Virus record (IMG/VR): IMGVR_UViG_2934853166_000001
Strand: one strand, 5' to 3'
Length of the DNA: 64,000 bases
Source of the DNA: an uncultured virus (IMG/VR IMGVR_UViG_2934853166_000001)
Taxonomy: Duplodnaviria; Heunggongvirae; Uroviricota; Caudoviricetes
This document shows, in pieces, positions 13,418-52,867 of the stretch. Under the pieces are notes generated by a model, which was not told where the DNA came from, did not search any database, and worked only from the letters and a program-made list of their open reading frames with translations. The position numbers and the translations under genes were made by a program. Numbering within the stretch: the first letter of the stretch is position 1; each line of letters starts with the position of its first letter.

Positions 13418-13428
13418 GGTGGGGGCGG

Positions 13429-15757: not shown

Positions 15758-15946
15758 CAGTGAGCGCCTGCTGCCGCTGGGCTGTTCACGGGCAGACCGC
15801 AGGCCCGTACGTCTGTACGGGTGGGCATGCCAAGTACATTCGGCATCGGGCTCGGGTACCTCCGAGTCAAGGGCCGGGGTCAACAGGAGCGCCAACTCCT
15901 GCCCGGCCCGCCTTCGTTTGCGGGGCCAGGTGACCGGCGGCCGGGG

Positions 15947-16156
15947 CTAGGACGCGGGAGCGTCGGGGTTTGCCTGCTCGGTGTCGAGCGTCTTCTTGAG
16001 TGCGTCGACAGCGGCGCGGCTGTATCGCCGGTGCTTGCTGCCGGGTAGCCGGCGGGTGGGGGCCAGGACGCCTGCCTTCTCCCACCGTCGGACGGTGGCT
16101 GGCGACACGTTGAACTCTGCCGCTACTTCGCTGGGCGTCAGTTCGTCGGCTCCCAC
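15947..16156 (-). CDS. BldC/MerR-like HTH (excisionase-like)
   Basis: LTPSEVAAEFNVSPATVRRWEKAG.L...R.PG..HRRY. Confidence 0.85.
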   Translation of the reverse strand: MGADELTPSEVAAEFNVSPATVRRWEKAGVLAPTRRLPGSKHRRYSRAAVDALKKTLDTEQANPDAPAS

Positions 16157-16382
16157 GGTTCCCCCTGTCGGCGTTGTCAAGTCGCCCAAGGTTACCGAGG
16201 TGTGCGTGGGGTGGGGTCTGCTCGGCGGTGGCCGGTGCAGTAGGTCCGTCGTCATGTTCTCATTCTGATCTCACTTCCCTATCTTGTCAAACTTGTCAGC
16301 GTGTGGGAGAGTGGTCTCAGCAAGGCAAGCCGCTCCCGAGGTGTTGGCGCACCGAAGGAGCCCGATCGGGAGGTACCCCGAG

Positions 16383-29822: not shown

Positions 29823-30626
29823 CTAGGCAATGTCTACGTCTTCGCCGGCAAGCCAGTCTTCGACGCCGGTCAGAGGGTTGTCTTCGCTGATCTTTTCGAG
29901 GAGCCTGCCCGGCCACCTGATCGGTTTGTCGGTGCGCCGCCAGAACGCCCGGTAGATCGCGTCGACAGGGAAGGTGCCGTTCGGGGTCCAGTTCTTGCCG
30001 GTGACCGTGAGCTTGTTGCTGCCGACAAGGTGCCTGAACAGTTCGCGGTCTGCGGTGCGCCAGTCTCGGCTAGGTGCTGGAGTGCTGGTGATGTCCTGCT
30101 CGTCCTCCTGCTCATCGGCTTCGTGAGCATGCTCGTTGTTCACGCCGCCACCGGAGTGAACGGAGTGAACGGAGGTGGTGCAGTGCAGTGCAGAAACATC
30201 TTCTTCTCTGGTGCTCCTTCTCGGTTCTTCTTTAGAAAGCCGGTTACCATCCGGCGGGAAACCACCCGGCGGTTTCGGACTTGTGGTCTGACCTGCGGAA
30301 ACGTCAGGCGCGGGTTCGCTGGTGTCCGTTACGGGCACGTCGTAGACGGTTTGCACCCAACTGAACCGGCCATCCTCGCCGCGTACGCGCTGCCGCTTGA
30401 GGTAGCCGACCTTCTCCAACTCCTTCAACGCGGTGCGGATCGCCTTCACGCCCTCACCGTCAGGCCGGGCTGCCGCTAGGTGCTCGGCGGTGGCCGTCCA
30501 GTTGTCGGGCCGGGAGAGAATGTCGTGGAGGATGCCGCTCGCCCGGTAGCTCATGCGCGGCTCGCGGGCGGTTTCGTTGGCGAGGATCAGGAAGCCGCGA
30601 TCTGGCCGGGGCGCTCGCTTGATCAC
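29823..30626 (-). CDS. Second putative replication initiator (wHTH), paralog of 14507-15757
   Basis: EPRMSYRASGIL..ILSRPDNW...AIRTALKELEKVGYLKR.R.R.EDG. Confidence 0.72.
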   Translation of the reverse strand: MIKRAPRPDRGFLILANETAREPRMSYRASGILHDILSRPDNWTATAEHLAAARPDGEGVKAIRTALKELEKVGYLKRQRVRGEDGRFSWVQTVYDVPVTDTSEPAPDVSAGQTTSPKPPGGFPPDGNRLSKEEPRRSTREEDVSALHCTTSVHSVHSGGGVNNEHAHEADEQEDEQDITSTPAPSRDWRTADRELFRHLVGSNKLTVTGKNWTPNGTFPVDAIYRAFWRRTDKPIRWPGRLLEKISEDNPLTGVEDWLAGEDVDIA

Positions 30627-31126: not shown

Positions 31127-32527
31127 CTACCCGCCGAGCAGCACGTCCCGCCACCGCCACGCCAACTCCAGGCACCCGGCCCCGGCGGGCGCGACACGAC
31201 CGGAGCCGAGCAGCCCTCGCACTCCCTCAGCAGTGAACGGGTACCGCTCGGCGACCACCTGGCCCTCGTCGTTGCGGTCGACGAAGTCCGCCGCCAACCG
31301 GTCGAACACCGGGGCGTCGATGACGAGCGCCGTCAACACTTCGCCAACCAACGTGAGTGCATCCAACGCCACCCCGAGGCAGTGCACCGAAAGCCGGCCG
31401 TCGGCCCGCGCCTCATCGAGCAGCCCGTACGGCCCTGCCGTGTAGTCCACCGGGCGGCCGTGCCCGTCCGCCTCCGGCATGCCCAGCAGCTCCTCTGCCA
31501 GCTCGCGCTGCACGTTGCGCCAGATCGAGAAGTCCGCCTCCCGGGCCGCCGGCAACAGGCTCGACGGCTGGAACACGCCGCTGGGGATCACCTGGAGCAT
31601 GCCGCCAGCAGCGGCCACGGCGCGAGGATCCCGGCGGTGCAACAGGAGCTCGGCCCGCGCCCCGTCACGCCGGATGGTGAGGGTGGAGATGGCCGGCATC
31701 ACCGGACGCCGGTCGAGCGCGAACGGGTCACCCACCAGCCGGCGGTACGGCAGGTCCCGCAGCGTCGGATCCGACGCCGGATGGCCGTCGGCATCCAAGG
31801 CGACGTACGCCAGCTCGTGCGCGAGGCTCTCGAACACGTCAGCGCACCCGAAGTAGGTGGTGTCGCCGAACGCCATGCGCCTCGCCGACCAGTCCACCCC
31901 GAGCAGCCTCCACGCGAACCGGTCCTCAAACAGCCTCGGGGGCGCGAGGTCCCGGATCGCACGGGTGTACCGGGGGTAGGAGCGCATCAGCGACTCGTCC
32001 GGCAGCATCCGGGCCGCCTCGCGTTCCGTGCCGTCCAGTGCGGGCGGGGGAGCGTCCGGCACCTCGGCCAGGCGCACGTCCGCCAAGTCGACCGGTCCGT
32101 TCGGGATCCAACCCGGGCCGGCGATCAGGCCAGTGCCAGCCAGCGCGTGACCCGGGTACAGACCGGCGGCCGTCTGAGCCAGCTCATGCCGCCTGGCGTT
32201 GAGAAGCCGGCGCGTCGCCACCCACTCGTCCTGCGACTTGGCAACCCGGGGATCCCGCACATCATCCATGAACCAGTCCTCTGCGCTCGGCCTACGAGAA
32301 CGCGACACCGACGGACGCTCAGGGATCCCCAACTCCTGCACAGACACCCCGAACACCCTCGCCAACGCGCGCTGATACGGAAGCGACGGGCGCTGCACGC
32401 CCAACTCCCACCGAGACACCTGACCGGCCGTCACCGCCGAACCCACCCGAGCCGCAACCTCCTGCTGGGTGAGCGCCGCAGCAGCCCGCAGCACGGCAAG
32501 CCGGTTCGGTGCCTCAACATCAGCCAT
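31127..32527 (-). CDS. XRE-family HTH fused to a Nudix-like C-terminal domain
   Basis: LRAAAALTQQEVA...VSRWELG..RP; C-terminal LLHRR...VIPSGVFQP...RELAEELLG. Confidence 0.75.
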   Translation of the reverse strand: MADVEAPNRLAVLRAAAALTQQEVAARVGSAVTAGQVSRWELGVQRPSLPYQRALARVFGVSVQELGIPERPSVSRSRRPSAEDWFMDDVRDPRVAKSQDEWVATRRLLNARRHELAQTAAGLYPGHALAGTGLIAGPGWIPNGPVDLADVRLAEVPDAPPPALDGTEREAARMLPDESLMRSYPRYTRAIRDLAPPRLFEDRFAWRLLGVDWSARRMAFGDTTYFGCADVFESLAHELAYVALDADGHPASDPTLRDLPYRRLVGDPFALDRRPVMPAISTLTIRRDGARAELLLHRRDPRAVAAAGGMLQVIPSGVFQPSSLLPAAREADFSIWRNVQRELAEELLGMPEADGHGRPVDYTAGPYGLLDEARADGRLSVHCLGVALDALTLVGEVLTALVIDAPVFDRLAADFVDRNDEGQVVAERYPFTAEGVRGLLGSGRVAPAGAGCLELAWRWRDVLLGG

Positions 32528-32677
32528 GGTGGTCACCCCCAGGTGGGCGTTGCGTCGGCGTCAACAGGTCAGCGTATGGGCGACCGGTAGGCGACGCCCA
32601 CGAGACGCCCATTGGTCGCCGAGCAGACGCCATTCCGGTGCCGTGTAGGCCAGATCACGCTGGCAGGCATGAAGCGA

Positions 32678-32935
32678 CTACGACGAAGCGGGCGCGGTGT
32701 CTTCGCCGAGGTTTCGGCGGCGCAGTGCCTCAACCGCAGCCTCACGCTCCCCGTCGGGCAAAGCCAGGACGCGCGACAACTCCTCCACCGAACCGGGGTC
32801 GATACGGCGGTGCTGGCCCGCTGTTCGGGCGGTACGCAGCAGCCCGTTCTTGCACCAGGCGATCACGGTCGACGCCGACACGTTCAGCCGCTCCGCAGCT
32901 TCGCTTGTCCGCAGCGGTTTGTCGCCGTCACCCAT
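32678..32935 (-). CDS. BldC/MerR-like HTH (excisionase-like)
   Basis: LRTSEAAERLNVSASTVIAWCKNGLL..ARTAGQHRRI. Confidence 0.85.
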   Translation of the reverse strand: MGDGDKPLRTSEAAERLNVSASTVIAWCKNGLLRTARTAGQHRRIDPGSVEELSRVLALPDGEREAAVEALRRRNLGEDTAPASS

Positions 32936-33044
32936 CGCCGCCCCCATCATCCGCACCTTCTGATCCTGCAAATTCTGCACAGTCTCGCACCGGTCGGTCG
33001 GCGAATGCGAGACGCGGTCGGTCGGGGTGTTGCCAACAACACCA

Positions 33045-33086
33045 AACCTACGAAAGCTGCGAATCCTGTAGAACCTGTGGCACACT
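33045..33086 (+). promoter_or_regulatory. Four 9-bp direct repeats over the tra promoter
   Basis: AACCTACGA AAGCTGCGA ATCCTGTAG AACCTGTGG, then -10-like CACACT. Confidence 0.55.
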
Positions 33087-33093
33087 GTCTGGC

Positions 33094-34605
33094 ATGACCG
33101 ACCGACCGACCACGACAGCCGACCGACCGGCACTCCGACCGGCCGCACTCGCACCCGAGTCGGTCGACGCCCCAACCCAACCGACCGACACCGACCACCC
33201 CCGCAACCGACTGAGCCGACTACTCCGACCGACCCGCACCGACAAGCCGACCGACCGGAAGGAGGCAACCGTGACCGACCACCGACCGACCGTCATCACC
33301 GCCCCGCCGGTCGACGCCCCCGCAAAGCCGGTCGGCCGAGTCGGTCGATGGCGTCAGCAGCGCACCGACAAGGCCGCCGACCGCGCCAACCGACTCGCCG
33401 AAGCGACCGACCGCGCCAACGCTGCCGCCGACCGCGCTGCCCGACTCCGCGCCACCCAGCAGCCCACCACCCAGCCGACCGACCGCACCGACGCCGACAT
33501 CGCCCCCATCCCCAACCGACTCACCTGGGCCGGCATCTGGGCCGACCGCACCTTCGGCGCAATGCCCCTCATCGCCCCGCTGCTGGTCTCCGGCTACTAC
33601 ACGATGAAGGTGTTCACCGGCGACCCCATCAGCGCCCACGTCCTCATCGCCTTCCTGGCTGCGTGCGCTCTCGAAGGCGGCGTGTGGAAGCTCGCCCGCC
33701 TCTACGAGGTCACGCTGGTCGCCGGGGACTCCACCATGGGGCTGCGCTTCGGCATCGGCATCTACCTCGCACTGATCTCCGGCCTCATCTACTGGCACGC
33801 CCTCCACGAGGCGAAAGCGCAAGGCCGCACTGAGCTGGGCGAAGACGCCCTACCCGCCATCGGCGTGGCCGTCATGTCCGCCCTCGGCGTGTACATCTGG
33901 GCCCGCCGCGCCCGCTGGGTGCGCCGCCGCGAACTCCACGCCGCCGGCCGCGTCGACACGCAGGCACCCAAGTTCGCCGCCCTCGCCTGGCTCCTCTGCC
34001 CCATCGAAACGCCGCTGGCGCTGCGGCACGCCGTCAAGTACCGCATCCAGTCGCCGACCGTCGCCGTCGAGGACCGCCGACTGTTCGTGGCCGCCGGCCG
34101 ACCGGCCATCTGGCCGCCGACCGACCGCAATGCCACCGCGCCCACCGACCGGCCCACTGTCGCCGACCACAAGCCGACCGACCGGACCGCACCCGCCGTC
34201 ACCGACCGGCCGGCGGCGTCGACCGCACCGACCTCCGCCCCGACTGCCGACCGACCGGCCACCAAGCCGACCCCCGCGCCGCCGACCGACCGGCGGATGG
34301 TCACCACCATCCCCGCACCACGACCGACCCTCACCCAACCGACCGCCCCGACCACCCAGCCCCGACCGGCCCCCGCCAAGCAGAACACCGACACCGACAC
34401 CGACCGACCGACCTTCACCACCGCCGCCATCGAGAACGCCGCCACCATCCGCGCCATGTTCGGCACCACCGACCGACTCAAGCTCGCCGACGTCCGCAAC
34501 GCCTTCGAACCCCGCTGGTCCTACGACAAGGCCAACCCCGCGTTCAAGGCGTACCTCGCCGGGGCCGACCAGCCGACCGACCAGCCCGCCGCAGCCAACG
34601 CGTAA
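33094..34605 (+). CDS. Spd/Tra-like membrane protein (4 TM) with TDRP-rich termini; alternative start GTG 33271
   Basis: Central four hydrophobic helices (LEGG); first gene of the traB operon; AAGGAGG before 33271. Confidence 0.7.
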   Translation: MTDRPTTTADRPALRPAALAPESVDAPTQPTDTDHPRNRLSRLLRPTRTDKPTDRKEATVTDHRPTVITAPPVDAPAKPVGRVGRWRQQRTDKAADRANRLAEATDRANAAADRAARLRATQQPTTQPTDRTDADIAPIPNRLTWAGIWADRTFGAMPLIAPLLVSGYYTMKVFTGDPISAHVLIAFLAACALEGGVWKLARLYEVTLVAGDSTMGLRFGIGIYLALISGLIYWHALHEAKAQGRTELGEDALPAIGVAVMSALGVYIWARRARWVRRRELHAAGRVDTQAPKFAALAWLLCPIETPLALRHAVKYRIQSPTVAVEDRRLFVAAGRPAIWPPTDRNATAPTDRPTVADHKPTDRTAPAVTDRPAASTAPTSAPTADRPATKPTPAPPTDRRMVTTIPAPRPTLTQPTAPTTQPRPAPAKQNTDTDTDRPTFTTAAIENAATIRAMFGTTDRLKLADVRNAFEPRWSYDKANPAFKAYLAGADQPTDQPAAANA

Positions 34606-34622
34606 CCGACCAACCGACCGGA
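33095..34622 (+). repeat. Dispersed strand-biased (A)CCGACCG(A) repeats, clt/TRS candidate
   Basis: Dense at 33095-33500 and 34100-34622; nearly absent from the TM-coding core. Confidence 0.75.
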
Positions 34623-34631
34623 GGACCACCA

Positions 34632-34910
34632 ATGACCGTCGACAACCTGCCCGCCCGGCGCACCGCCCCACGCGCGGTCGCCGTCATCACCACCGCCAAG
34701 CCCGCCCAGACCACGCCGCCGGCCAGCACCGGCAACTACCTGCCCGCGTTCCGGCTGGCCACCGCACTCGCCATCGTGTCGTTCGCGGTCGCCGTCCTTT
34801 CCGCCGCCTCCTACCTGGCCGACCGCAGCGAGCAGGCCGCACTGTGCGCCGGAGTCGCCGGGGCGCTCCTGGTCGTCGCCCTCGTCGAGTGGTGCCGGAG
34901 GCGAACGTGA
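34632..34910 (+). CDS. Small 2-TM protein (Spd-like)
   Basis: RBS GGAGG; two hydrophobic helices. Confidence 0.65.
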   Translation: MTVDNLPARRTAPRAVAVITTAKPAQTTPPASTGNYLPAFRLATALAIVSFAVAVLSAASYLADRSEQAALCAGVAGALLVVALVEWCRRRT

Positions 34911-35087
34911 TGACTGTGCGTGTTGTAGCCGCCAATATCGGTTGAAGCCGTTATCGCCGATGTAGCCCCAGGTCAGACCCCCCTCCCCGGCGCGAAAGAC
35001 CCTCACGGAGGGGGGTGCATGAAGCCGATGAAGCCTTCAACGCCACCACCCAACAACACGGAAAGTCACGAGAGGGGAGGCCGGGAA

Positions 35088-36560
35088 ATGACCGACACCA
35101 CCGCGACACAGCCGCCCGCAGCGGCCCCCACCAGCCCGCGACAGCAGCGGACCACCACACGCCCCACCGTGTCGGTGCGCCCGGTCGCCGTCGGAGCCGT
35201 CAACGCCGCCACCATCGCCGGAGCCACCGCCGTAGCCGCCGGAGGGGGCATCGCCCTGGCTGCGCTCGCCGGTGGTGCCGCGCTCGCCGCGACCGCCGCC
35301 GGGGCGCGCAAGACCGGCCACGCGAAAGCCAACAAGGCCGCCACCGGCAGCCCTTTTCGCAACCCCGCCCGGTCAGGCGGCAGCCCCGGCGGTGGAGGTG
35401 GTGGCCGGTCGGGTGGCGGGATGCCTCGCGCCGGCCGGTCCGGTGCCGCATCGCCCGGGGGCCGTGCGCCCGGGTCGAAGCCGTCACCCACCCCCCGCGC
35501 CGGAGGCCGCCCCAGCTCGACGGGCAGCACCAACGGCAAGGGCGGCGGGCTCCTGTCGAAGGTTCCCGGGTTGGGCAAGAGCACCCCCACCGGTAGCCGT
35601 ACCCCCGGCGGATCCCGCAACAGCAACCCTGGCAGCGGCCGGCGCACCACGCCCACCGGGCACCGTCCCGCCGGATCCCAGCCGGGCAGCAGCAGCCGCT
35701 CCCCGCTCACCGCAGACAAGGTCGCCGCCGCACGCCGCCGGCTCGCCAACCGCCGCCAGCCTGGTCCCCGCCTGTCAGACGCCATCCACAAGGCAACCCA
35801 GCCCGGCACCGACGGCAAGAAGCCCACCGCCCGGCAGGCGTGGCGGGCCGCCCGGCAGCAGGTCACCGGCATGACCCCCAAGAACCGGGGGGCGCTCCGG
35901 CGGGCCCTCGCTGGCCTCACGGCAGCCGCCCTCGCAGCCGCCAAGGCGGGCCGGGACAACCGGAACGCACGCAAGCGCCGCGAAGCCGCCCGCCAGGCAC
36001 TCGACGCCCGCCGCGCCGCACGCCTCGCCGCCGCCCAGCACGCCAACCGGACTGCCGTGGCACGCACCATCCGCCAACGCCCCGGAACCCCCACCAACCC
36101 CAACACCCACACGCACAGCAACAGCCCGGCGGTGAAGCCGGCACCCATCACCCCGATCGTCGCCGCCAAACCGGCCACCGTCACCGCAACAGGAGGAACC
36201 GTCATGTCCCGTCAACTGCTCGCCATCTCCGAGGACTTCCTGTCCGCCGCCGCCCGCAACCAGCCCGACGGCATGCTCCAGGTCACCGCCGAGGCGCACC
36301 TGATGCCGCAGATCCTCGACAACCTGTCCCGCGCGTTGAAGCTGCGCTACGACCAGGCCCTCAAGCAGCCCATGCACCCGGCCATCAAGGACATGTACGG
36401 GGAGATCCACAAGAACCAGGTGGCGGTGGCGTCCGCGTCGGAGGAGATCGGCCCGACCATCGAGCGGGTCCACAAGGACGAGCTGGAGCGGCTCCGCAAC
36501 CCGCTGATGCGCGGCGACGAGTCGATGTGGGACACCGTCAAGAACCGGGACGTCGCCTGA
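35088..36560 (+). CDS. TraA-like protein (Gly/Pro/Arg-rich linker, helical C-terminal domain)
   Basis: Coupled (TGATG) to traB; internal AGGAGG-ATG at 36204. Confidence 0.6.
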   Translation: MTDTTATQPPAAAPTSPRQQRTTTRPTVSVRPVAVGAVNAATIAGATAVAAGGGIALAALAGGAALAATAAGARKTGHAKANKAATGSPFRNPARSGGSPGGGGGGRSGGGMPRAGRSGAASPGGRAPGSKPSPTPRAGGRPSSTGSTNGKGGGLLSKVPGLGKSTPTGSRTPGGSRNSNPGSGRRTTPTGHRPAGSQPGSSSRSPLTADKVAAARRRLANRRQPGPRLSDAIHKATQPGTDGKKPTARQAWRAARQQVTGMTPKNRGALRRALAGLTAAALAAAKAGRDNRNARKRREAARQALDARRAARLAAAQHANRTAVARTIRQRPGTPTNPNTHTHSNSPAVKPAPITPIVAAKPATVTATGGTVMSRQLLAISEDFLSAAARNQPDGMLQVTAEAHLMPQILDNLSRALKLRYDQALKQPMHPAIKDMYGEIHKNQVAVASASEEIGPTIERVHKDELERLRNPLMRGDESMWDTVKNRDVA

Positions 36561-38791
36561 TGGCCGCACGTCGTGTCGACTGGAGTTTCGGGCCCGGCCA
36601 CGGGCCCGTCTCCGGGGCCATCAACGCCGCCGGCTCGACGCTCGCCGCGTCGATGGTCGCCGACCTCGCCCACGTGCAGCCGGTGTGGGGGGCGACCGCC
36701 GGTGCGGTCGCCGCCGCCGGTGCCGTCATCTCCTCCGCCGCCCACAACGCCCCCGGCCGCGCCCTCGCCTACCGGTCGCTGTGCTGGCTGGGCGCGGGCT
36801 GCTGGTCAACGTGGTCGCTGGCCACCGCCACCCTGGAGCGGTGGTCGGGGCCGTGGTCCACCAGCAACATCGCCGCCCTTGTTGTCGGCACAATCGGGGC
36901 TGCATACGCGGGCAGGGCCTTCCAGCGGGCACAGCAGCGGGAAGAGGACCAGCGGCAGGTCGCCATCGACATCGCCCGGGAAGCCGCCGCAATCGCCGCC
37001 GCCCACGCCGAGCAGCGGGCCGCCGACGGTGACCTCGACGCGCTCGCCGCCGTGTGGCGTAAGCGCATCGAACGGGTCTGCCACATCACCCTCGCCGAGG
37101 TGGACGGCATCGTCGGCATCGCCCACTGGGACGGACAGCCGTGCCCCGGCTACACCATCGACGGGAACTTCCCGCCCGGCGGGGCGTCGTGGAAACACCT
37201 CAAGAACTACGAGGAAGCGTTGGCGTCCGACGCGCGTCTCCCCGAGGGCTGCTCGGTGAAGGTGCTGCCCGGCGTCGACCGGGGGGCCTTCCAGATCGAG
37301 GTGATGCTCCGCAACGCGCTCGCCGAGAACAAGCCATACCCCCGGGAGTACCCGCACGAGTCCATCAACGACCCGCGCCTGCTGGTTTATCGGTCCAACG
37401 ACGAGCCGGTTCGGGTCAGCCTCCGCCAGGAGACGATGATCGTGGTCGGCCCGACCGGCTCAGGAAAGACCAACACCATGAACGAGGTGGTTGCCGAACT
37501 GGTGAAATGCGTAGATGTCATCAACTGCGCGATCGACTTCAACGGAGGCTCCATCGCCATACCGTGGCTGATGCCGTGGCGAACCGACCCCGAGTCGTGC
37601 CCCCGCCCGGCGTTCGACTGGATCGCCGACACTCCAGCGAAGGCGCTTGTGATGACCGAGGCGATCCTTGACGTGTTGAAGGACCGCAAGCAGGCGTACG
37701 CACACCTCAAGGTGGCCGCCAACGCCACGCTACTGCCGATCTCAGCCGACCTTCCGCTGTTCGAGGTCGTCGTCGACGAGGCCGCCGAAGTTCTCGGAAC
37801 CAGCGCAACACGAGATCCGATCGTGCGGCAGGTCGCCGAGAATCTGATGGAGATTCAGCGCATCGGGCGGGACGCCGGTGGGCGGCTGATCGTGTCTTCA
37901 CTGGGCGCGACGACCGAAACCCTCGGATCGCGTGGAATCAAGATTCACTCTCGGGTGAAGATGGCCATGGCAGGGACCCCCGCCGACGAGCTGGGCTACC
38001 TGTTCGACGACTACAAGATGGCACCCGAGGACGTCGTCCACGAGGGCAGCGCCCGCATTCGCATCGGCCAGAACGCCGTGTTCATCGGCAAAGTGCCGTA
38101 CCTACTGCCAGAGCAGATCGCCGAGATCGCCATCGCCACCTCGGACCGACGCCCAGCCCCCGACGACCGAGCATTGCAGATCATGGGTGACCGGTGGGCA
38201 GAGCGTTGGGAGCAGTCCACCGAACTGTTGGATCTTCTCGACTCGGGTGTGGCGGCCCTACGCGCCGGGGTGTCCGTCAGCGCCGCCGTCGCCGCTGTCG
38301 TGCCGCAGCAGCGTGCGGCAGGCGATATCACCGAACCTGCCAGCCGCACGGTCCGCAGCGAGCTAGCACCGTCGATCGGCGACGCCCAGGCCGACCTGGA
38401 GGCCGCCCGCCGCCGCCTCGCCGACATCGAACCGGTCCCCGACCCTGGGCCCCGCGAGTCGGAGCTGCCGCCGCTGCCGGAGGAGGCCGACTTCTCCGTG
38501 GTCGAATCGTGGCTGAACCCGGGCACCCCCGCCACCGACGACGCTGGCAAGCCGAAGCCGCACCCGCGCCGCCGCATGCGTCAGATCGTGTGGGACGCCG
38601 CCGACGCCGGTATCGGCCCCACCGCCGTCCACAAGCAGTTGGAGGCCGAGGGCTACGCCACCACCTACCCGACGGTCAACGGGTGGATGAAGGACGACGC
38701 CGCCAACGGCATCCTCAACCAGGACCGGGACCGTGCCCCGTACACGCGCGGGGAGAAGATGGCCAACCCGTATGAGCAGGACCAGGGCTGA
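36560..38791 (+). CDS. traB: TraB-type FtsK/SpoIIIE conjugative DNA translocase
   Basis: N-terminal TM helices; Walker A GPTGSGKT; Walker B VVVDE; R..GR arginine-finger region; C-terminal wHTH (PRRRMRQIV...IGPTAVHKQL...TV.GW). Confidence 0.88.
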   Translation: MAARRVDWSFGPGHGPVSGAINAAGSTLAASMVADLAHVQPVWGATAGAVAAAGAVISSAAHNAPGRALAYRSLCWLGAGCWSTWSLATATLERWSGPWSTSNIAALVVGTIGAAYAGRAFQRAQQREEDQRQVAIDIAREAAAIAAAHAEQRAADGDLDALAAVWRKRIERVCHITLAEVDGIVGIAHWDGQPCPGYTIDGNFPPGGASWKHLKNYEEALASDARLPEGCSVKVLPGVDRGAFQIEVMLRNALAENKPYPREYPHESINDPRLLVYRSNDEPVRVSLRQETMIVVGPTGSGKTNTMNEVVAELVKCVDVINCAIDFNGGSIAIPWLMPWRTDPESCPRPAFDWIADTPAKALVMTEAILDVLKDRKQAYAHLKVAANATLLPISADLPLFEVVVDEAAEVLGTSATRDPIVRQVAENLMEIQRIGRDAGGRLIVSSLGATTETLGSRGIKIHSRVKMAMAGTPADELGYLFDDYKMAPEDVVHEGSARIRIGQNAVFIGKVPYLLPEQIAEIAIATSDRRPAPDDRALQIMGDRWAERWEQSTELLDLLDSGVAALRAGVSVSAAVAAVVPQQRAAGDITEPASRTVRSELAPSIGDAQADLEAARRRLADIEPVPDPGPRESELPPLPEEADFSVVESWLNPGTPATDDAGKPKPHPRRRMRQIVWDAADAGIGPTAVHKQLEAEGYATTYPTVNGWMKDDAANGILNQDRDRAPYTRGEKMANPYEQDQG

Positions 38792-38794
38792 CAG

Positions 38795-39412
38795 GTGACC
38801 ACCTCCCAGATCCGCCGGCCGGGACAGCGCGTTACGTCCCGGCCGGCGTCGTGGGCACCACCCGACCAGTGGCGGCTCTATCGGGCGTGGGGTGACCTGC
38901 CCCGCGAATCCGGGCTGTGGTCGCGCGCCGTCTGCTGGCTGCTCGGCGGCTGGCAGCAACTCCTGTACATCGGCGTCACCCGCCGCACCGCTGTCGCCCG
39001 CTGGGCCGAACACCTCGACGGGAAGACGTGGGCCGGCGATGTGGCGTGCTGGGAACGCGACCCGCGAGTGTGGGCCACCGAAGCCGACGTGCTCGCCGTC
39101 GAACGGGCCGCGATCATCGCCGAGCGGCCCGTCCACAACGTGGCCCACAACGGCAACAACCCGGGTGCGGTGCGGGTGCGCCGGCACCTGCCCCGGCATG
39201 TGGTGCGCGCCCGTCTCCGCTGGACGGCACGCGCCTGCCTGTGGTTGGCCCTGTTCGCCGGCTGCTGGCTTGCCGCCGCCGACGTGTGGCACGGCTGGGA
39301 TGCGCCCCGCAACTCGGCTGTCGCAGCGACTGTTCTCGGCGGCCTCATGTGGTGGGGGAAAGCGCAGTCCCGCCGGCCGAAGAAGCGCCGCCGCGTGAGG
39401 CGTCGCCGGTGA
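38795..39412 (+). CDS. GIY-YIG nuclease with C-terminal TM helices
   Basis: LYR...LLYIGVT....RW.EH...E..AI..ERP.HN; two hydrophobic helices and a poly-Arg tail. Confidence 0.78.
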   Translation: MTTSQIRRPGQRVTSRPASWAPPDQWRLYRAWGDLPRESGLWSRAVCWLLGGWQQLLYIGVTRRTAVARWAEHLDGKTWAGDVACWERDPRVWATEADVLAVERAAIIAERPVHNVAHNGNNPGAVRVRRHLPRHVVRARLRWTARACLWLALFAGCWLAAADVWHGWDAPRNSAVAATVLGGLMWWGKAQSRRPKKRRRVRRRR

Positions 39413-39687
39413 CCGCCCCCTGGCAGTGGGTCATCTGCCGCACCGGGCCCCGCGAGCTTGTGGTCGACGCCGGCACCCAACACACCCGCCTGTACTCGGC
39501 ACCAGACGAGATCGCCGCCGAACGCCTCACCGTCTACGCCTACAACCAAGTCCTCGCCGGCCGCCCAGTCCACCCCGACCAGCTCGTGTGCCGGGTGCGG
39601 CGGGCCGGCGAACACACATGGTCCGGCACCGCGACCGGCGACCGGATCCTGCTCCCCACCACCACACCAACCAGGAGGCCCGCATGA
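39409..39687 (+). CDS. Hypothetical protein
   Basis: GTGA/ATGA coupling within the tra operon. Confidence 0.5.
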   Translation: MTAPWQWVICRTGPRELVVDAGTQHTRLYSAPDEIAAERLTVYAYNQVLAGRPVHPDQLVCRVRRAGEHTWSGTATGDRILLPTTTPTRRPA

Positions 39688-40358
39688 CCGACCTGACCGA
39701 CTACCGGCCCATCGACGTCACCCCGTCCGAGCTGCAAGCCGCCGGCCTCGCCGCGCCCGCCCGGTGGGTGCACGACACCACCACCAACCCGGAGGACATC
39801 ACCGACTGGGCGGCCCGGCAGGCAGCCGCGATCGTCCCGTACCGCCTGTTCCTCGGTCGCCCCGTCAACCCGTGCGAGCGCACCGGCAAGGTTGGGCGTG
39901 ACCTGGGCCGGTGGGGGGAGAACCCGGCAGCCGACCCCATCGTCGTCTGCGGCGACGGCCCCGCCCGGCGGATCCTCCTCATCCTGCGCGACGACTGCCG
40001 TCACTGGGCGATCCCCGGCGGCATGGTCGACCCAGGGGAGACCGCGCCCGCCGCGCTGGTACGCGAGCTGCGAGAGGAGACCGGCGTCGACCTCACAAAT
40101 GTCACCCCGCAGGTGGTGGTCCGCACCTACGTCAAGGATCCCCGCAACACCGATGAGGCGTGGGCCTGTACGACTGCCGCCCTGTTCCGGCTGCCCGCCG
40201 AGGTGGTGGCGGTCGGAGCCGACGACGCCCTGGACGCCAGGTGGTGGCCTTTCGCCACCCTCGCCCAGCTCGACGAGGCGGTGCGCGCCGCCGGGGGAGT
40301 CCTGTACGAGGCGCACCGGCTGCTGCTGACCGCCGCACTGCACGTGCTGGACGGCTGA
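39684..40358 (+). CDS. Nudix hydrolase, NUDT9-like ADP-ribose pyrophosphatase
   Basis: Nudix box GGMVDPGETAPAALVRELREETG; LGRWGENPAADPIV and YVKDPRNTDEAW signatures. Confidence 0.9.
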   Translation: MTDLTDYRPIDVTPSELQAAGLAAPARWVHDTTTNPEDITDWAARQAAAIVPYRLFLGRPVNPCERTGKVGRDLGRWGENPAADPIVVCGDGPARRILLILRDDCRHWAIPGGMVDPGETAPAALVRELREETGVDLTNVTPQVVVRTYVKDPRNTDEAWACTTAALFRLPAEVVAVGADDALDARWWPFATLAQLDEAVRAAGGVLYEAHRLLLTAALHVLDG

Positions 40359-40428: not shown

Positions 40429-41628
40429 TCAGCCTGCCCGTGTCGCCAACTCGCGCACCAACCCGCGCCCCCGCTCCACAGCAGGGACCGCATCCACCAC
40501 CCGCCCCACAGTGAACCGCACCAGCTCGTTGTGATGCGCCACCGGCAGTGCGTCGAGGACGTCACCCGCGTACCGGATGCCCCCCGACACGTCCCCGCCC
40601 CGCACCATCCCGGCAGCCCGATGCAACTGCACCTGCGCCCGCAGCCGAATCTGCTGGGCCGGATACAGGGCCATCGCCCGATCCTGCGCCTCGGCGGCCT
40701 CCCGCGTCCTGCCCGCGTGGGTGAACACCCACGACCGGGTGTGCGCGGTGCGCGTCTCCGACCACCCCCACAGTGATCCGCCGTCCGGGGCGTCCGCCGG
40801 AAGCTGGTCCGCCATGTCCGTCAGGCGGTTGACCATCGCCACCGCCTCCGCGTGCCGGCCCGCCAGAGACAGCGCCTGCGCTTGCCCGGCCAGCAGTTGA
40901 CATCCGGCCACCGAAGGCGCACCCACCGGCGGAAGGCTCTCCGCCGACGCCGGCAGCCCGGCCACGGTCCGCCCGTCATAGCAGCCGTTGACGGTGTCCC
41001 AGGCCAGGACCCACCGCTGCACACCAGCATCCGCCGACAGCTCAGCCATCCGCCGAGCCGACGCCCACCACCTGCGTGCCGCGACCTGCTCGCCAGCCGA
41101 CACCTGCTCCAAAGCCACCAGCGTCGACAACAGCCCCGCCACACCCAGCAGACGCTGCCGATGCTGCCCGTCCGTGGCCGCGATCTGATGGCCGAGCACG
41201 TCCAGGTCCGCCCGCAGGCTCGCCATCAGCCGTTCTGCTGGAAGCTGGTAGTAGTCCACCCCGTATCCGGCCACGATGCTCGTCCACTCGTCGTGGTCGA
41301 CGGCCACACCGAGGCCGTGGCGTAGCGCCTCCCACCCCGTCAGTCGGTCCACCGCCGGGGCAGCCGCTAGGGCCCCCATCGCCTGCAAAACTCTCCGTCT
41401 GCGCATGTCCGTGTCGCCTGCCCGTCTACTCGCGTACGCGTCGGTTAGCGCCCCGCCCGCCTCAAGCGCATTGTCGTATGCGGCAACCACATCCGTCGAT
41501 GCTGGGCGTGTGCCGCGCTCAACCTGCCCGAGGTACCCGAAGTCGTAGCCGATCCGAGCCCCGAACTTCCGCAGCGACCAGCCGGACGCCTTACGCCGCT
41601 GCCTCAGTATGTGTCCGAAATCGTCCAT
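40429..41628 (-). CDS. XRE-family regulator with TPR-like C-terminus
   Basis: FGHILRQRRKASGWSLRKFG.RIGYDFGYLGQVERG.R; helical repeats. Confidence 0.85.
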   Translation of the reverse strand: MDDFGHILRQRRKASGWSLRKFGARIGYDFGYLGQVERGTRPASTDVVAAYDNALEAGGALTDAYASRRAGDTDMRRRRVLQAMGALAAAPAVDRLTGWEALRHGLGVAVDHDEWTSIVAGYGVDYYQLPAERLMASLRADLDVLGHQIAATDGQHRQRLLGVAGLLSTLVALEQVSAGEQVAARRWWASARRMAELSADAGVQRWVLAWDTVNGCYDGRTVAGLPASAESLPPVGAPSVAGCQLLAGQAQALSLAGRHAEAVAMVNRLTDMADQLPADAPDGGSLWGWSETRTAHTRSWVFTHAGRTREAAEAQDRAMALYPAQQIRLRAQVQLHRAAGMVRGGDVSGGIRYAGDVLDALPVAHHNELVRFTVGRVVDAVPAVERGRGLVRELATRAG

Positions 41629-42024
41629 GCTGTCCCCCCAGCGTGTGGGCAGTTGTGTGGGCCCACTGCTCACCCCTGCCACCCGCCCATCCTATCGACC
41701 ACTCTGGACGTGTCGGGACAAGCACCCGACGCCGAAAAGCGCGGTAGACCGCAGGCCAGAGGCCGTTGCCTACCGCTGCCGGCGCGGTGTGGTGGCCAAC
41801 CGGGACCCCCAGCCCCCAAGGCCACCACACCCCGCAGAATGTCGGAGGTGCGCGGTGGGATACCGGTGGACCAGCAACACGCCCCGCGACCGTTTCGAGG
41901 ACCCACCGATGCCCGACAGCGAGCCTGACGCCGACAGCGGCGAGCACCTGGACGCCGACCATCAGTTCGCCGCCGGAGCATCCGGCCGCCGACCCCGCAA
42001 CCGCAGCAACCGGTGGGGGCAGCG

Positions 42025-45662: not shown

Positions 45663-46031
45663 TCAGGCGAGCCTCTCGGCGGCACCAGCCGGCTTGTCCT
45701 TCACACCGCTCTCCTGCGCCGCATCCGAGACACCCGTCGGCTTGAACAAGCCGAAGTGCACCGCCACGGCGATGCCGAAGTTGATGGCCGTGCTGTACAC
45801 GACCGGGATCCACTCGAACACCGCCGCCGTGTTCTCCGCCTGCAACCACGCCGACAGCACCGAGTTGATCGCGGACAGGGCGAGCAGAAGCACCGCCTTC
45901 ACACCAGGGCTGGTGGAGCGGCGGGTGACGAGACCGACGAGGATCGGCAGAACGATGGTGATGGCCAGAGACAGCAGCCCACCCAGGTTGGGGGCGAAAC
46001 CGTACACGGGCAGTGCGGGAATGTCGCTCAT
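45663..46031 (-). CDS. Putative holin
   Basis: Three TM helices, charged C-terminus, end of lysis cassette. Confidence 0.75.
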   Translation of the reverse strand: MSDIPALPVYGFAPNLGGLLSLAITIVLPILVGLVTRRSTSPGVKAVLLLALSAINSVLSAWLQAENTAAVFEWIPVVYSTAINFGIAVAVHFGLFKPTGVSDAAQESGVKDKPAGAAERLA

Positions 46032-46112
46032 GTGACCCCTCCCAGGGGTGATCTTTGAAGGGCCCGCCCACGAGATGAGGGCAGGCAGAAGGAACCGCCT
46101 ACGATCGGCGGC

Positions 46113-46373
46113 GTGGCAGGTCAACCGCAGGTGCGCGAGTCGGCTTGGCTGTACGCGCCCGGCGACCCGTACGTGCCCATCGCCCACGTCCGGCTGGAAG
46201 AACGCATGGACGGCAGCGGCGCATGGGACCTGTACGTGTCCGACCCGGCGTCAGCGCCAAGTCAGCATGCTCGCTGGCCCGACGAAGACGGGGCCCGCGC
46301 CGAGCTGGACCGCATCTACGAGGCCGGGAGAGCCGACGGCGAATGGCAGATCATCAGCCACCACAGCTACTAG
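46113..46373 (+). CDS. Hypothetical protein antisense within the lysis cassette
   Basis: TACGAT 7 nt before GTG. Confidence 0.6.
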   Translation: MAGQPQVRESAWLYAPGDPYVPIAHVRLEERMDGSGAWDLYVSDPASAPSQHARWPDEDGARAELDRIYEAGRADGEWQIISHHSY

Positions 46374-46693
46374 CGGCGAACCCGCGCCGCCCGATCCTGC
46401 TCCACAAACCGCTTGTACGACAGCACCCGCAGGATCAGCAGGGCGTCTATCACGGCCAGCGACCCCAGGCCGAACACGGCATCCACCGTGTCCACATGGC
46501 TGGTCGTCGGCCACCGCAACACCAGCAGCACGATCTGCCGTACGTACAGCAGCGCCGCCAACAGCACCCACCCGGAGGCATCCCACGCGGCCAGCCGCCG
46601 CCACCGGCGGGGCCGATGCCACGACAGGAACGCCAACGCCGACACCAACCCGACGATCAGTAGCACCAGCAGCGCCACCCGATACGTGATCAA
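46370..46693 (-). CDS. 3-TM membrane protein (lysis accessory/holin-like)
   Basis: Hydrophobic helices, position in cassette. Confidence 0.7.
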   Translation of the reverse strand: MITYRVALLVLLIVGLVSALAFLSWHRPRRWRRLAAWDASGWVLLAALLYVRQIVLLVLRWPTTSHVDTVDAVFGLGSLAVIDALLILRVLSYKRFVEQDRAARVRR

Positions 46694-46929
46694 CTTCCCC
46701 CCACCACCTGCCTCAACCAGTCGTCGTACTTGTTGGCCACGTTGTGGGCGCGCAACCGCTCAGCCAACCGATCAGCCTCCACCCGACGCCGAGCAGCCAC
46801 CAAACGATCCTGCTCCGCCCGCGACACAGACTCATCCGCCCGCAACGACGCCTGCCGCGCCTCAGGTGATGGCTGGCGTCCCCTGCCCAACGGCCACAAG
46901 CCGCGCACCACTCGCCGCCACCACCTCAT
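46690..46929 (-). CDS. Lysis-cassette hypothetical protein
   Basis: Overlap-coupled to both neighbours. Confidence 0.6.
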   Translation of the reverse strand: MRWWRRVVRGLWPLGRGRQPSPEARQASLRADESVSRAEQDRLVAARRRVEADRLAERLRAHNVANKYDDWLRQVVGGS

Positions 46930-47252
46930 GACACGTAGCCCCCCGGATGCGTCGGATGCCCGAGCTTGTCCAGCAGGCCAGTCGCCGTCCGAGCAGTCTC
47001 CACCGCAGCGTTCGCCGCCCGAGACGCGTCAATGAACGCATCCCGCGTCGCCTGATGCGCGTCCCGCTCCGTCTCGTACGCCGAACGCCACGTATCCCGA
47101 TCAGCCTTCATCTGCTCATGCGCACCCTTGGGTATCAGCCAGCCCAGCAGGATCAGCACCAGGACTATGCCCGGCACACCCCATTGCAGGATCGCGCCGA
47201 ACACGTTCGAGGGGTCAGCGGACCCAGCGTCGGCGGCCCAGCGGATCAGCAT
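46926..47252 (-). CDS. Membrane protein (1 TM + coiled coil), lysis cassette
   Basis: WGVPGIVLVLILLGWLIP followed by coiled coil. Confidence 0.7.
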   Translation of the reverse strand: MLIRWAADAGSADPSNVFGAILQWGVPGIVLVLILLGWLIPKGAHEQMKADRDTWRSAYETERDAHQATRDAFIDASRAANAAVETARTATGLLDKLGHPTHPGGYVS

Positions 47253-47286
47253 CGGCCGTCCCCCGTGTCAGTGATGGTGTGGCCGG

Positions 47287-48192: not shown

Positions 48193-48217
48193 AGGATCAC
48201 CTCCAAGGGGTTGCTGG

Positions 48218-49690: not shown

Positions 49691-49715
49691 TATGTCTCCT
49701 CGAAGGTGGGGGTGG

Positions 49716-50648: not shown

Positions 50649-50691
50649 CCCCGCCTCCCCTCAGGTGAGCAGGGCCAGACAGGGGCAGAGA

Positions 50692-51888: not shown

Positions 51889-51898
51889 AAGCCACCCC

Positions 51899-52846: not shown

Positions 52847-52867
52847 ACGCCACCCCCACCCATCCGA

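What the first reader, a model, noticed from the sequence alone, without database searches (positions are those of the whole stretch)
32991..34622. Strand-polarised CCGACCGA repeats written into the first tra gene: candidate clt (TraB loading locus) inside a coding region
Seen: more than 20 (A)CCGACCG(A) copies on the + strand (e.g. 33097, 33119, 33281, 33474, 34117, 34173, 34398, 34572), read as TDRP/PTDR in the protein termini and sparing the TM core. Two opposite-orientation copies (CGGTCGGTCGG) lie at 32991 and 33015, so polarity flips at the divergent promoter. Known: TraB wHTH domains bind 8-bp direct repeats (TRS) at clt, analogous to FtsK-KOPS. Inference: the low-complexity protein tails are a by-product of a DNA signal.
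Basis: partly seen in the sequence, partly recalled or inferred. Interest (0 to 1): 0.7.

Follow-up and report, generated by a model that had tools for sequence, protein, structure and literature searches.

The report
DNA word array inside transfer gene
A short DNA word is written about 36 times, in all three reading frames, into the floppy ends of a membrane-protein gene that opens a DNA-transfer operon; relatives carry other words in the same place, so it is probably a docking site for the transfer machinery hidden in a coding sequence.

Summary
CCGACCG occurs 36 times on the + strand and once on the - strand in 33094-34625, about 55 times the density elsewhere in the window. Two opposite-strand CGGTCGGTCGG copies lie in the divergent promoter.

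The words sit in the N and C tails of a four-helix membrane-protein gene. This gene opens an operon that ends in a TraB/FtsK-like translocase. Several results point to a DNA-level signal rather than a peptide repeat:
- The word falls in all three frames.
- Spacings are not multiples of three.
- The rare CGA codon is used heavily.
- Copy numbers exceed every synonymous resample.
- Homologous genes in 13 other loci carry their own 7-mer in the same tails, for example ACGGAAC, CGGACCG, CGAGACC and CGTCTCC.

I read it as a clt-like docking array written into coding sequence. The reader protein is not settled. TraB has a confident C-terminal winged helix that stays conserved where its motor is swapped. 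However, one relative (L022) has a similar TraB tail and no array. The membrane protein's own C-terminal three-helix domain tracks the word at least as well. The verdict is a new variant of a known kind, of fairly high interest.

The parts
32678..32935 (-). Small MerR/HTH_17 (excisionase-like) regulator gene (P0002), transcribed away from the tra operon.
   Evidence: Pfam HTH_17 3.6e-10 and MerR 1.9e-08. PHROG excisionase 7.4e-06.
32991..33025 (-). Two copies of CGGTCGGTCGG, the word array in opposite orientation, 24 bp apart in the divergent promoter region. The first copy is flanked by the inverted repeat TCTCGCA/TGCGAGA.
33094..34605 (+). Gene 1 of the tra operon. It gives 503 aa from ATG 33094 (P0001); the database call is 444 aa from GTG 33271, which has the SD GGAAGGAGG (P0125). 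The model shows a coiled coil, four membrane helices, a disordered linker and a C-terminal three-helix domain.
   Evidence: Third-position GC 0.88-0.95 in this frame. 33 homologues found. AF2 model. No Pfam family.
33097..33485 (+). N-tail word array: 16 copies of CCGACCG.
33499..34114 (+). Conserved membrane core, with only 3 word copies, at its edges.
34117..34620 (+). C-tail word array: 16 copies in the disordered linker and C-terminal region, plus 1 in the spacer after the stop codon.
   Evidence: The linker has pLDDT below 50.
34420..34557 (+). C-terminal three-helix domain of gene 1 (P0125 residues 384-429, pLDDT above 90). It is a candidate DNA-binding domain and the rival reader of the words.
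   Evidence: The same domain type occurs in L008, L009 and L023, which carry the same word.
34632..34910 (+). Small 92-aa hydrophobic protein gene.
   Evidence: Small genes sit in the same position in plasmids L001 and L002.
35019..36560 (+). Gene for a 513-aa Gly/Arg/Ser-rich protein (P0004) with a conserved C-terminal domain. Its stop codon overlaps the traB start.
   Evidence: The C-terminal domain is found upstream of traB in L022-L024 and in plasmids.
36560..38791 (+). TraB/FtsK-SpoIIIE-like DNA translocase, 743 aa.
   Evidence: phrog_31069 2.9e-81. Plasmid and phage relatives at 30-35% identity. 453 homologues found.
38564..38749 (+). C-terminal winged helix-turn-helix of TraB.
   Evidence: AF2 gives H-H-H-beta-beta with pLDDT above 90. 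All 50 listed structural matches are winged-helix DNA binders, Z 7.6-8.6.
38795..40358 (+). Endonuclease-like gene (38795-39412) and Nudix hydrolase gene (39426-40358) at the end of the operon.
   Evidence: phrog_3312 2.5e-09 and Pfam NUDIX 1.4e-16.

Best explanation
The CCGACCG copies are a selected array of short protein-binding words written on the DNA. It is a clt/TRS-like docking site for the element's double-strand DNA transfer complex. It is embedded in the parts of gene 1 whose protein product is disordered and can tolerate it.

A sequence-specific domain of the membrane transfer complex would bind the many copies. That would hold the element's DNA at the membrane pore so that the TraB motor can load on it. 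The two opposite-strand copies in the promoter would let the same protein sense or repress the operon.

Shown here:
- The array exists.
- The signal is at DNA level.
- The word differs between lineages.
- TraB has a winged helix.

Inferred:
- That a protein binds the array.
- Which protein that is.
- That binding serves transfer.
For: 1. Density and polarity. The region has 36 + copies and 1 - copy, 55 times the density of the rest of the window.

2. The signal is on the DNA, not in the peptide.
- Frames 0/1/2 hold 10/15/11 copies.
- Spacings under 120 nt, taken mod 3, give 7/16/11.
- CGA makes up 19 of 52 Arg codons, against 8% of 1555 in other genes.
- R-P is encoded as the word in 9 of 12 cases against 1 of 93. 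P-T-G.. is so encoded in 10 of 13 against 9 of 37. x-D-R is so encoded in 16 of 16 against 16 of 34.
- Copies also lie in the promoter and in the spacer after the stop codon.

3. Synonymous resampling. The observed top 7-mer exceeded all 500 resamples in W (19 against a mean of 8.7), L009, L011 (26 against 6.7; 2.0 for the same word), L013, L015, L016 and L018. It exceeded all 300 resamples in L023 and L024.

4. Family-wide pattern. In an unbiased 7-mer scan the top cluster fell on the gene 1 homologue in 8 of 9 long loci. That comprises 6 of 6 metagenome loci (L014 only weakly, with 6 copies) plus L023 and L024; L022 failed. The words differ by lineage: CCGACCG, ACGGAAC, GGGAACG, CGGACCG, CGAGACC, CGTCTCC and CGTACCG. 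In L011 the word falls 11/8/8 over the frames and gives three different peptides.

5. Persistence. W, L008, L009 and L023 keep the same word although their cores are only 62-79% identical, or not detectable by tblastn in the case of L023, and their tails are poorly alignable.

6. Context. The gene opens a TraB operon. No other 8-mer reaches 5 copies in any 400-bp stretch of 26-47 kb.

7. Candidate readers.
- The TraB winged helix is modelled with confidence. It stays 69-87% identical in 15 relatives whose motor is only 27-30% identical. Two of these appear to share a contig with TDRP-type gene 1 proteins; this is inferred from equal contig lengths only.
- Gene 1 has a confident three-helix C-terminal domain. 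Many relatives end in a canonical helix-turn-helix-like motif.

8. Established background. TraB proteins bind 8-bp repeats in clt through the winged helix (passages of PMC4447253, PMC3583192, PMC4170104 and PMC12857230).
Against: - No binding or transfer data exist for this element.
- L022 has a TraB C-terminus 65% identical to that of L023 and 53% identical to the window's. Yet it has no dense array, only 11 + and 2 - copies spread over 4.2 kb.
- Polarity is weak in L018 (13:11), L013 (8:5) and L024 (25:8).
- L012 and L014 have only 6 copies.
- Described clt loci are 50-175 bp with 3-9 repeats and lie next to tra or kor genes, not spread over 1.5 kb of coding sequence (PMC3583192).
- The resampling test is not fully specific. 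The control traB gene also passed with the alanine-run word GCCGCCG (12 against 5.4), and P0004 gave p = 0.04.
- Word, TraB tail and gene 1 C-domain are all inherited together in the few pairs available, so co-variation is confounded by descent.
- In Streptomyces loci with a related TraB (L004-L006), the top word of gene 1 has only 7-8 copies (single frame in L004 and L006, two frames in L005) and does not follow the TraB tail.
Confidence: 0.55

Rival explanations
1. Neutral repeat dynamics. The tails are disordered linkers under little constraint. Once a short word is present in several copies, slippage and unequal exchange between copies keep making new ones. On this view the array persists and drifts by molecular drive, and no protein reads it.
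For: - Tandem runs exist: (CCGA)3.5 at 33097 and 34399, four contiguous ACGGAAC heptads in L011, and 12-nt tandem units in L015.
- The tails vary widely in length and are poorly alignable.
- The C tail is modelled as disordered.
- Recent DNA duplication would also pass the codon and resampling tests.
- L012, L014 and L022 have few or no copies.
Against: - Most copies are dispersed at 17-104 nt, with flanks that are not conserved beyond the word.
- The same word survives where cores are 62% identical or less.
- Copies lie outside the tails in opposite orientation, at the divergent promoter or in the divergent gene, in W, L009 and L023. Slippage within the tails cannot produce these.
- Both tails of one gene carry the same word although 500-800 nt of word-free core separates them.
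Confidence: 0.15
2. An operator or silencing array for a transcriptional regulator. A repressor of the kil-kor type binds the two promoter copies and spreads over the copies in the gene body. This keeps the potentially toxic tra operon off until transfer is induced.
For: - Two exact 11-mers lie 24 bp apart in the divergent promoter.
- Regulator genes flank the operon: MerR/HTH_17 at 32678-32935, and HTH_31 at 31127-32536 and 40429-41682.
- traB-traR pairs are described as kil-kor systems (passage of PMC4447253).
Against: - The divergently transcribed regulator is MerR-like in W and L023 but GntR/UTRA in L009, yet all three carry the same word.
- An operator needs only a few sites, not 36 over 1.5 kb.
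- The arrays are tied to the tails of one gene in all lineages, rather than to promoters.
Confidence: 0.12
3. Function at the protein level. On this view the repeated short peptides (TDRP, PTDR and so on) are what is selected, for example as interaction or modification motifs in the tails. The DNA word would simply follow from codon preference.
For: - CCG, ACC and GAC are the preferred codons, so about 8 copies are expected from the peptide sequence alone.
- Homologues of the Micromonospora group repeat TDRP- and PTD-type peptides.
- A (CCGA)n tract encodes the same cyclic peptide in every frame, which follows directly from the sequence.
Against: - The observed 19-25 copies exceed all 500 resamples.
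- Rare CGA is used for 19 of 52 Arg codons.
- In L011 one DNA word gives three unrelated peptides, T-E-R, x-G-T and x-R-N, in frames holding 11/8/8 copies.
- Copies occur in non-coding DNA.
- The peptide changes completely between lineages while the array layout stays the same.
Confidence: 0.05

Closest known systems
[quoted passage not shown]
   Same: - Lies on an element with a membrane-anchored FtsK-like translocase that carries a C-terminal winged helix.
- Made of many direct copies of a 7-8-nt word.
- The word is specific to the element lineage.
- It is the only such cluster near the tra genes (literature passages).
   Different: - Described clts are 50-175 bp with 3-9 repeats, lie beside or just inside the 3' end of tra or near korB, and are essentially non-coding (PMC3583192).
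- Here 36 copies spread over 1.5 kb. They lie inside the first gene of the operon, about 2-3.5 kb upstream of traB, in all three frames, and they shape the protein's tails.
- Binding by TraB is untested.
FtsK-KOPS polar loading words
   Same: A short word with strong strand polarity (36:1) that could orient a hexameric FtsK-type motor through a winged-helix domain. The orientation flips at one point, the divergent promoter.
   Different: KOPS are spread over a whole chromosome (recalled, no call). Here the words are packed into one gene. Polarity is not kept in all relatives (L018 13:11, L013 8:5). Pfam FtsK_gamma was not detected in this TraB.
SpdB2 / DUF2637-type membrane proteins of actinomycete plasmid spread modules
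   Same: Same place in the operon as the DUF2637 gene of a Streptomyces plasmid and its counterparts in Frankia pFQ12 and an Actinomadura plasmid. Similar build: N-terminal coiled coil, membrane helices and a C-terminal domain (passage on SpdB2 domains in PMC4447253).
   Different: No Pfam DUF2637 match. The profile comparison with the plasmid DUF2637 protein gave probability 2%. No tblastn match was found in the plasmid or phage collections.
Binding sites of a DNA-binding protein inside its own gene (for example a parS site within spo0J/parB; recalled, no call)
   Same: If the gene 1 C-terminal domain reads the words, the protein's sites lie within its own coding sequence.
   Different: That case involves a single 16-bp palindrome. 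This one has dozens of 7-mers that dictate the protein's composition.

Membership tests
clt / TraB recognition-sequence array | Carried by an element that encodes a TraB/FtsK-like double-strand DNA translocase | tested here: met
   phrog_31069 2.9e-81. Relatives are annotated DNA translocase FtsK in actinomycete plasmids.
clt / TraB recognition-sequence array | Several direct repeats of a short (5-9 bp) word | tested here: met
   36 copies of CCGACCG, 25 of them non-overlapping, against a median of 5 for the best 7-mer per 1.6 kb.
clt / TraB recognition-sequence array | The translocase ends in a winged helix-turn-helix that can read the word | tested here: met
   AF2 model with pLDDT above 90 over residues 50-110 of the C-terminal fragment. 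All 50 listed matches are winged-helix DNA binders, Z 7.6-8.6, rmsd 1.6-7.5 over 60-87 residues.
clt / TraB recognition-sequence array | The word co-varies with the TraB winged helix among relatives | tested here: inconclusive
   For: the tail is 69-87% conserved across motor-swapped relatives, and loci with other words have other tails (L016, L024, L014). Against: L022 has a tail like L023's but no array. There are few pairs, and they are confounded by descent.
clt / TraB recognition-sequence array | Compact, essentially non-coding site next to tra or kor | tested here: not met
   The array spans 1.5 kb inside a coding gene 2-3.5 kb upstream of traB. Described clts are 50-175 bp (PMC3583192).
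clt / TraB recognition-sequence array | Bound by TraB and needed in cis for transfer | not testable with these tools
   Needs EMSA or ChIP and mating assays.
KOPS-like polar guide words | Consistent strand polarity relative to a switch point | tested here: inconclusive
   The window has 36:1 with a flip at the promoter, and L009 and L023 flip likewise. L018 (13:11), L013 (8:5) and L024 (25:8) do not keep the polarity.
FtsK gamma domain (PF09397) | Match to the Pfam model | tested here: inconclusive
   No hit at E up to 5 for the window's C-terminus. Streptomyces relatives P0040 (2.1e-17) and P0037 (7.2e-06) carry it at the same position.
DUF2637 / SpdB2-like spread protein | Sequence match to DUF2637 | tested here: not met
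   No Pfam family for P0001. hhalign probability 2% against the plasmid DUF2637 protein.
DUF2637 / SpdB2-like spread protein | Same operon position and membrane build | tested here: met
   Gene order is gene 1, small gene, Gly-rich gene, traB in L001, L002 and L003. Four membrane helices are modelled.
AICE (actinomycete integrative and conjugative element) | Integrase, replication and Tra modules bounded by att repeats | tested here: inconclusive
   A rep-like gene (29823-30626), TraB and Nudix are present. The only integrase seen is at 1-942, 32 kb away. No att-like direct repeat and no tRNA gene were found. Phage lysis and tail genes follow from 45.6 kb.

The most novel reading that the evidence does not exclude
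A whole family of Micromonosporaceae-type transfer modules writes its DNA docking site as an overlapping code. A lineage-specific 7-8-nt word is laid dozens of times, in any frame, into the disordered tails of the first membrane protein. The DNA signal therefore dictates the protein's low-complexity sequence, and the word-reader pair defines transfer specificity groups. The orientation of the words diverges from the promoter. This would load two oppositely directed TraB motors that pump the element as a loop of double-stranded DNA. That would be a concrete answer to how an uncut circle passes the pore.
Probability: 0.25. Interest if true: 0.85.

Novelty: new variant of a known kind. Interest (0 to 1): 0.68.

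Why it matters
How TraB-type systems pick and load an uncut double-stranded circle is still open, and clt sites are known for only a handful of Streptomyces plasmids. This finding offers three things.

- **A predictable place to look.** In a large, unannotated family of actinomycete elements, the recognition word can be read straight off the gene 1 tails.
- **A clear case of a DNA signal shaping a protein.** The binding-site array sets the composition of the protein's disordered regions. This bears on how low-complexity protein sequence is interpreted in general.
- **A testable two-reader question.** Either the TraB tail or the membrane protein's own C-terminal domain reads the words. The natural series of word variants is ready-made material for specificity swaps.

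I found no paper describing a clt inside a coding region of this kind. The searches were made, and for the papers opened I read only the passages found. The key papers (Vogelmann 2011, Sepulveda 2011, Thoma and Muth reviews) were not held. They may list predicted repeat sites that I could not see.

Tried and rejected
**Searches that gave little or nothing**
- No whole genome is held for the window. Genome-wide skew of the word could not be tested.
- The first genome-contig scan with TraB found nothing. The second, with an alignment, gave only four distant Streptomyces or MAG loci.
- A sample of 401 genomes of the class of G001 gave 0 matches to the gene 1 profile. A stricter first look was in force, so this says nothing about absence.
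- P0125 has no tblastn match in the plasmid or phage collections.
- The third protein search, with the L016 TraB, gave 17 relatives. None shares a contig length with a gene 1 homologue, so no new pairs came of it.

**Structure and family searches**
- Foldseek and VIA searches with the whole gene 1 model gave only generic helical bundles covering residues 88-227. The C-terminal domain was not tested on its own.
- The ESM Atlas look-up of that domain gave no usable hit.
- Pfam at E up to 5 found nothing in the gene 1 C-domain or the TraB C-terminus.
- FtsK gamma chains did not appear among the listed structural matches of the TraB tail.

**Controls and negative results**
- Streptomyces loci L004-L006 served as a control. 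Their top word has only 7-8 copies (one frame in L004 and L006, an ER-rich coiled coil; two frames in L005) and does not follow the TraB tail. They do not show the phenomenon.
- Spacings show no helical or other regular period.
- No att-like direct repeats and no tRNA gene were found in the window.

**Idea rejected**
Full report
**What is there**

The window has 69% G+C, and the closest named TraB relative is from Micromonospora at 80% identity.

Between 32.6 and 40.4 kb lies a transfer module. A small MerR/HTH_17 gene sits on the - strand at 32678-32935, followed by a 158-nt divergent intergenic region. A + strand operon follows, with these genes:
- gene 1, 33094 or 33271 to 34605;
- a 92-aa hydrophobic protein, 34632-34910;
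- a 513-aa Gly/Arg-rich protein, 35019-36560;
- a 743-aa FtsK/SpoIIIE-like translocase, 36560-38791, whose start overlaps the preceding stop;
- an endonuclease-like gene and a Nudix hydrolase gene.

These assignments rest. The translocase matches phrog_31069 at 2.9e-81. It has 30-35% identical relatives in actinomycete plasmids, and in Streptomyces phages of the Hiyaa group and ZL12. The same gene order (membrane protein, small gene, Gly-rich gene, traB) is found in a Streptomyces plasmid, where the first gene is annotated DUF2637. It is also found in Frankia pFQ12 and in an Actinomadura plasmid.

**The observation**

Word counts:
- ACCGACCG has 20 of its 25 window copies in 33094-34625, and CCGACCGA has 16 of 19.
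- The common core CCGACCG occurs there 36 times on the + strand and once on the - strand.
- That is 23.5 per kb against 0.43 per kb elsewhere.
- The whole-window count is 92, against 43.1 +/- 5.7 in shuffles.

Among 313 windows of 1.6 kb, the best non-overlapping 7-mer count has a median of 5 and a 95th percentile of 9. This region scores 25.

Sixteen copies lie in the N tail, 16 in the C tail, 3 at the edges of the conserved membrane core, and 1 in the 26-nt spacer after the stop codon. Two copies of CGGTCGGTCGG, the array in opposite orientation, lie 24 bp apart in the divergent promoter.

**DNA signal or peptide repeat**

The word is a dimer of CCGA, so a long tract encodes T-D-R-P in every frame. 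Isolated copies tell the two apart, and five lines of evidence agree.
- Copies fall 10/15/11 over the three frames.
- Spacings under 120 nt are 0/1/2 mod 3 in 7/16/11 cases. They are therefore not in codon phase.
- CGA supplies 19 of 52 arginine codons, against 8% of 1555 in the window's other genes.
- R-P is encoded C|CGA|CCG in 9 of 12 cases against 1 of 93. P-T followed by a G-starting codon is encoded CCG ACC in 10 of 13 cases against 9 of 37. x-D-R carries the word in 16 of 16 cases against 16 of 34.
- I kept the protein fixed and redrew each codon from the window's usage. The same word then appeared 8.4 times on average and the top word of any kind 8.7 times (maximum 15 in 500 draws), against 19 observed. 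For the long form the figures are 10.5 and 25.

One caveat applies to the resampling test. As a control, traB also passed with the alanine-run word GCCGCCG (12 against 5.4), and P0004 gave p = 0.04. An HTH_31 gene gave p = 0.97. The test is therefore not fully specific for words with a three-base period. The gene 1 words are not of that kind, and their effect sizes are far larger.

**Relatives**

A search with the membrane core found 33 proteins at E <= 1e-5. All have the same core and highly variable tails. Their tails repeat different short peptides:
- TDRP and PTD in a Micromonospora group;
- TETE in Polymorphospora-like members;
- RDT/HGT, QDT and PQNTEQ in others.

DNA was obtained for 11 metagenome loci and, through TraB, for 3 viral-collection loci of the same module type. 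In each, one 7-mer is concentrated in both tails and is rare or absent in the core and in the other 8-15 kb of the locus.

| Locus | Word | + : - copies |
|---|---|---|
| L008 | CCGACCG | 9:1 |
| L009 | CCGACCG | 16:2 |
| L023 | CCGACCG | 14:3 |
| L011 | ACGGAAC | 27:7 |
| L016 | ACGGAAC | 17:1 |
| L015 | GGGAACG | 14:6 |
| L017 | CGGAGCG, ACGGAAC | 10:4, 9:1 |
| L024 | CGGACCG | 25:8 |
| L010 | CGAGACC | 7:1 |
| L018 | CGTCTCC | 13:11 |
| L013 | CGTACCG | 8:5 |
| L012, L014 | GCGTCCC-like, weak | 6 copies each |

An unbiased scan put the top 7-mer cluster of the locus on this gene in 8 of 9 long loci. L014 qualified only weakly, and L022 did not.

In L011 the word falls 11/8/8 over the frames and yields three unrelated peptides: T-E-R, x-G-T and x-R-N. 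It includes four contiguous heptads. The observed top word exceeded every resample in L009, L011, L013, L015, L016, L018, L023 and L024. It gave p = 0.004-0.032 in L008, L010, L012, L014 and L017.

The word does not simply follow the core tree. W and L009 share CCGACCG at 62% core identity. L010 is 72% identical to W in the core but carries CGAGACC together with a different C-terminal domain.

Streptomyces loci with a 33% identical TraB do not show the effect. Their top word has 7-8 copies (one reading frame in L004 and L006; two in L005) and does not track the TraB tail.

**What reads the words: the case for TraB**

Published work on Streptomyces plasmids shows that TraB assembles at clt by reading 8-bp repeats with helix 3 of its C-terminal winged helix. 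I saw this in passages of PMC4447253, PMC3583192, PMC4170104 and PMC12857230.

The window's TraB ends in a confidently modelled H-H-H-beta-beta domain with pLDDT above 90. All 50 of its listed structural matches are winged-helix DNA binders, Z 7.6-8.6. Pfam FtsK_gamma is not detected in it, but it is detected at the same position in Streptomyces relatives.

This domain is 69-87% identical in 15 relatives whose motor domain is only 27-30% identical. The TraB N-terminal membrane part is also kept, at 59-75%. Three TraB relatives share a contig length with TDRP-type gene 1 proteins; two of them, P0017-P0130 and P0023-P0133, are motor-swapped and P0006-P0126 is not. This pairing is an inference from length only. 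Loci with other words have other TraB tails (L016, L014, L024).

No other 8-mer reaches 5 copies in any 400-bp stretch of 26-47 kb, so there is no competing clt candidate.

**What reads the words: the case against TraB alone**

L022 has a TraB tail 65% identical to that of L023 and 53% identical to the window's. Yet it has no dense array, only 11 + and 2 - copies over 4.2 kb.

L022 lacks the gene 1 C-terminal domain type that W, L008, L009 and L023 share; those four are 35-64% identical to one another in that domain. In the model that domain is a three-helix bundle with pLDDT above 90. It hangs on a roughly 90-residue disordered linker, and that linker is the C-tail array. In many relatives the corresponding C-terminus reads like a canonical helix-turn-helix.

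The membrane protein may therefore read words written in its own gene. SpdB2 of pSVH1, a spread protein of similar build, is reported to bind double-stranded DNA; I saw only the title in the reference list of PMC4447253. I rate the two readers about equal.

The divergent regulator is an unlikely reader. It is MerR-like in W and L023 and GntR/UTRA in L009, although all three carry the same word.

**Polarity**

In W the words point rightwards in the operon and leftwards in the promoter. L009 has six GGTCGG inside the divergent GntR gene. L023 has two at the start of the divergent HTH gene. The flip therefore recurs in all three CCGACCG-type loci that have upstream sequence.

This fits the loop picture drawn for TraB transfer in PMC11571958. 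That is speculation, and polarity is weak in L018, L013 and L024.

**Verdict**

The array is real and strongly non-random. It is selected, or at least generated, at the DNA level, and it is a family-wide feature with lineage-specific words. The best reading is a clt-like docking array embedded in coding sequence (0.55). The rivals are neutral repeat turnover (0.15), an operator array (0.12) and peptide-level function (0.05).

It differs from every clt described in the passages I could read in four ways:
- size (1.5 kb, 36 copies);
- position (the first gene of the operon, not beside traB);
- being translated in all three frames;
- the possible second reader.

The scan has noted TraB-with-repeat modules on other DNA before. 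Those had the repeats beside traB, not inside a gene's tails.

**Start codon**

Homologues begin with M-T-D-R-P-T...L-R-P-A-A-P, which matches the frame from ATG 33094. A related (L/V)LR.A.P motif occurs even in members with other words. The long form is therefore probably translated. The SD-plus-start KEAT(M/V) at 33271 is also conserved in P0128 and P0129, so an internal start is possible.

Noticed in passing
window 36560-38791, with relatives P0013-P0031: TraB is a mosaic. Fifteen relatives keep the N-terminal membrane part (59-75% identity) and the C-terminal winged helix (69-87%). Their motor domain is only 27-30% identical, as if the motor had been swapped between two lineages.
   Followed up: partly
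window 45663-64000: Phage late genes lie on the - strand: holin, a PG-binding endolysin-like gene, minor tail genes, a 1409-aa tape measure and a tail tube. They directly follow the transfer module, so the module may belong to a temperate phage or phage-plasmid rather than a plain AICE. Relatives sit on viral-collection contigs of 94-130 kb and on JGI contigs of about 165 kb.
   Followed up: partly
window 33242-33273: A strong SD (GGAAGGAGG) followed by GTG lies inside the long open frame of gene 1. It is conserved as KEAT(M/V) in two homologues. Two protein isoforms may therefore be made from one gene.
   Followed up: no
window 14507-17303: A second unit consists of a rep-like gene (14507-15895, -), a MerR/HTH_17 gene (15947-16255, -) and a divergent 339-aa gene. 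There is also a tyrosine integrase at 1-942 and a GntR gene at 2716-3276. Two elements may lie in tandem here.
   Followed up: no
window, outside 32991-34620: The remaining CCGACCG copies total 27 on + and 24 on -, but they are not evenly placed. They are mostly on - in 1-13 kb and mostly on + from 17 kb onwards. That includes 11:4 in the tail-gene region, where the genes run on the - strand.
   Followed up: no
L001 (Streptomyces plasmid NZ_CP108596.1) 5618-5984 and 6882-7303: CCGCCCC occurs 12 times on + in the C tail of the DUF2637 gene. Its complement GGGGCGG occurs 14 times about 1 kb downstream, mostly in an unannotated stretch ahead of the Gly-rich gene, so the two blocks converge. The word resembles the CCCGCCC repeat of the pWTY27 clt. 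It may equally be just Pro-rich and Gly-rich coding sequence.
   Followed up: partly
L002 (Frankia pFQ12, AY027524.1) 12764-14169: Sixteen + strand copies of CGGCGTC cluster far from traB, most of them inside a - strand gene. They could be that plasmid's clt or iterons.
   Followed up: no
L004 and L006, about 5460-5750: The ER-rich coiled coil of the Streptomyces gene 1 is written with the rare codons CGT GAA seven to eight times, in two different genomes whose TraB tails are unrelated.
   Followed up: no
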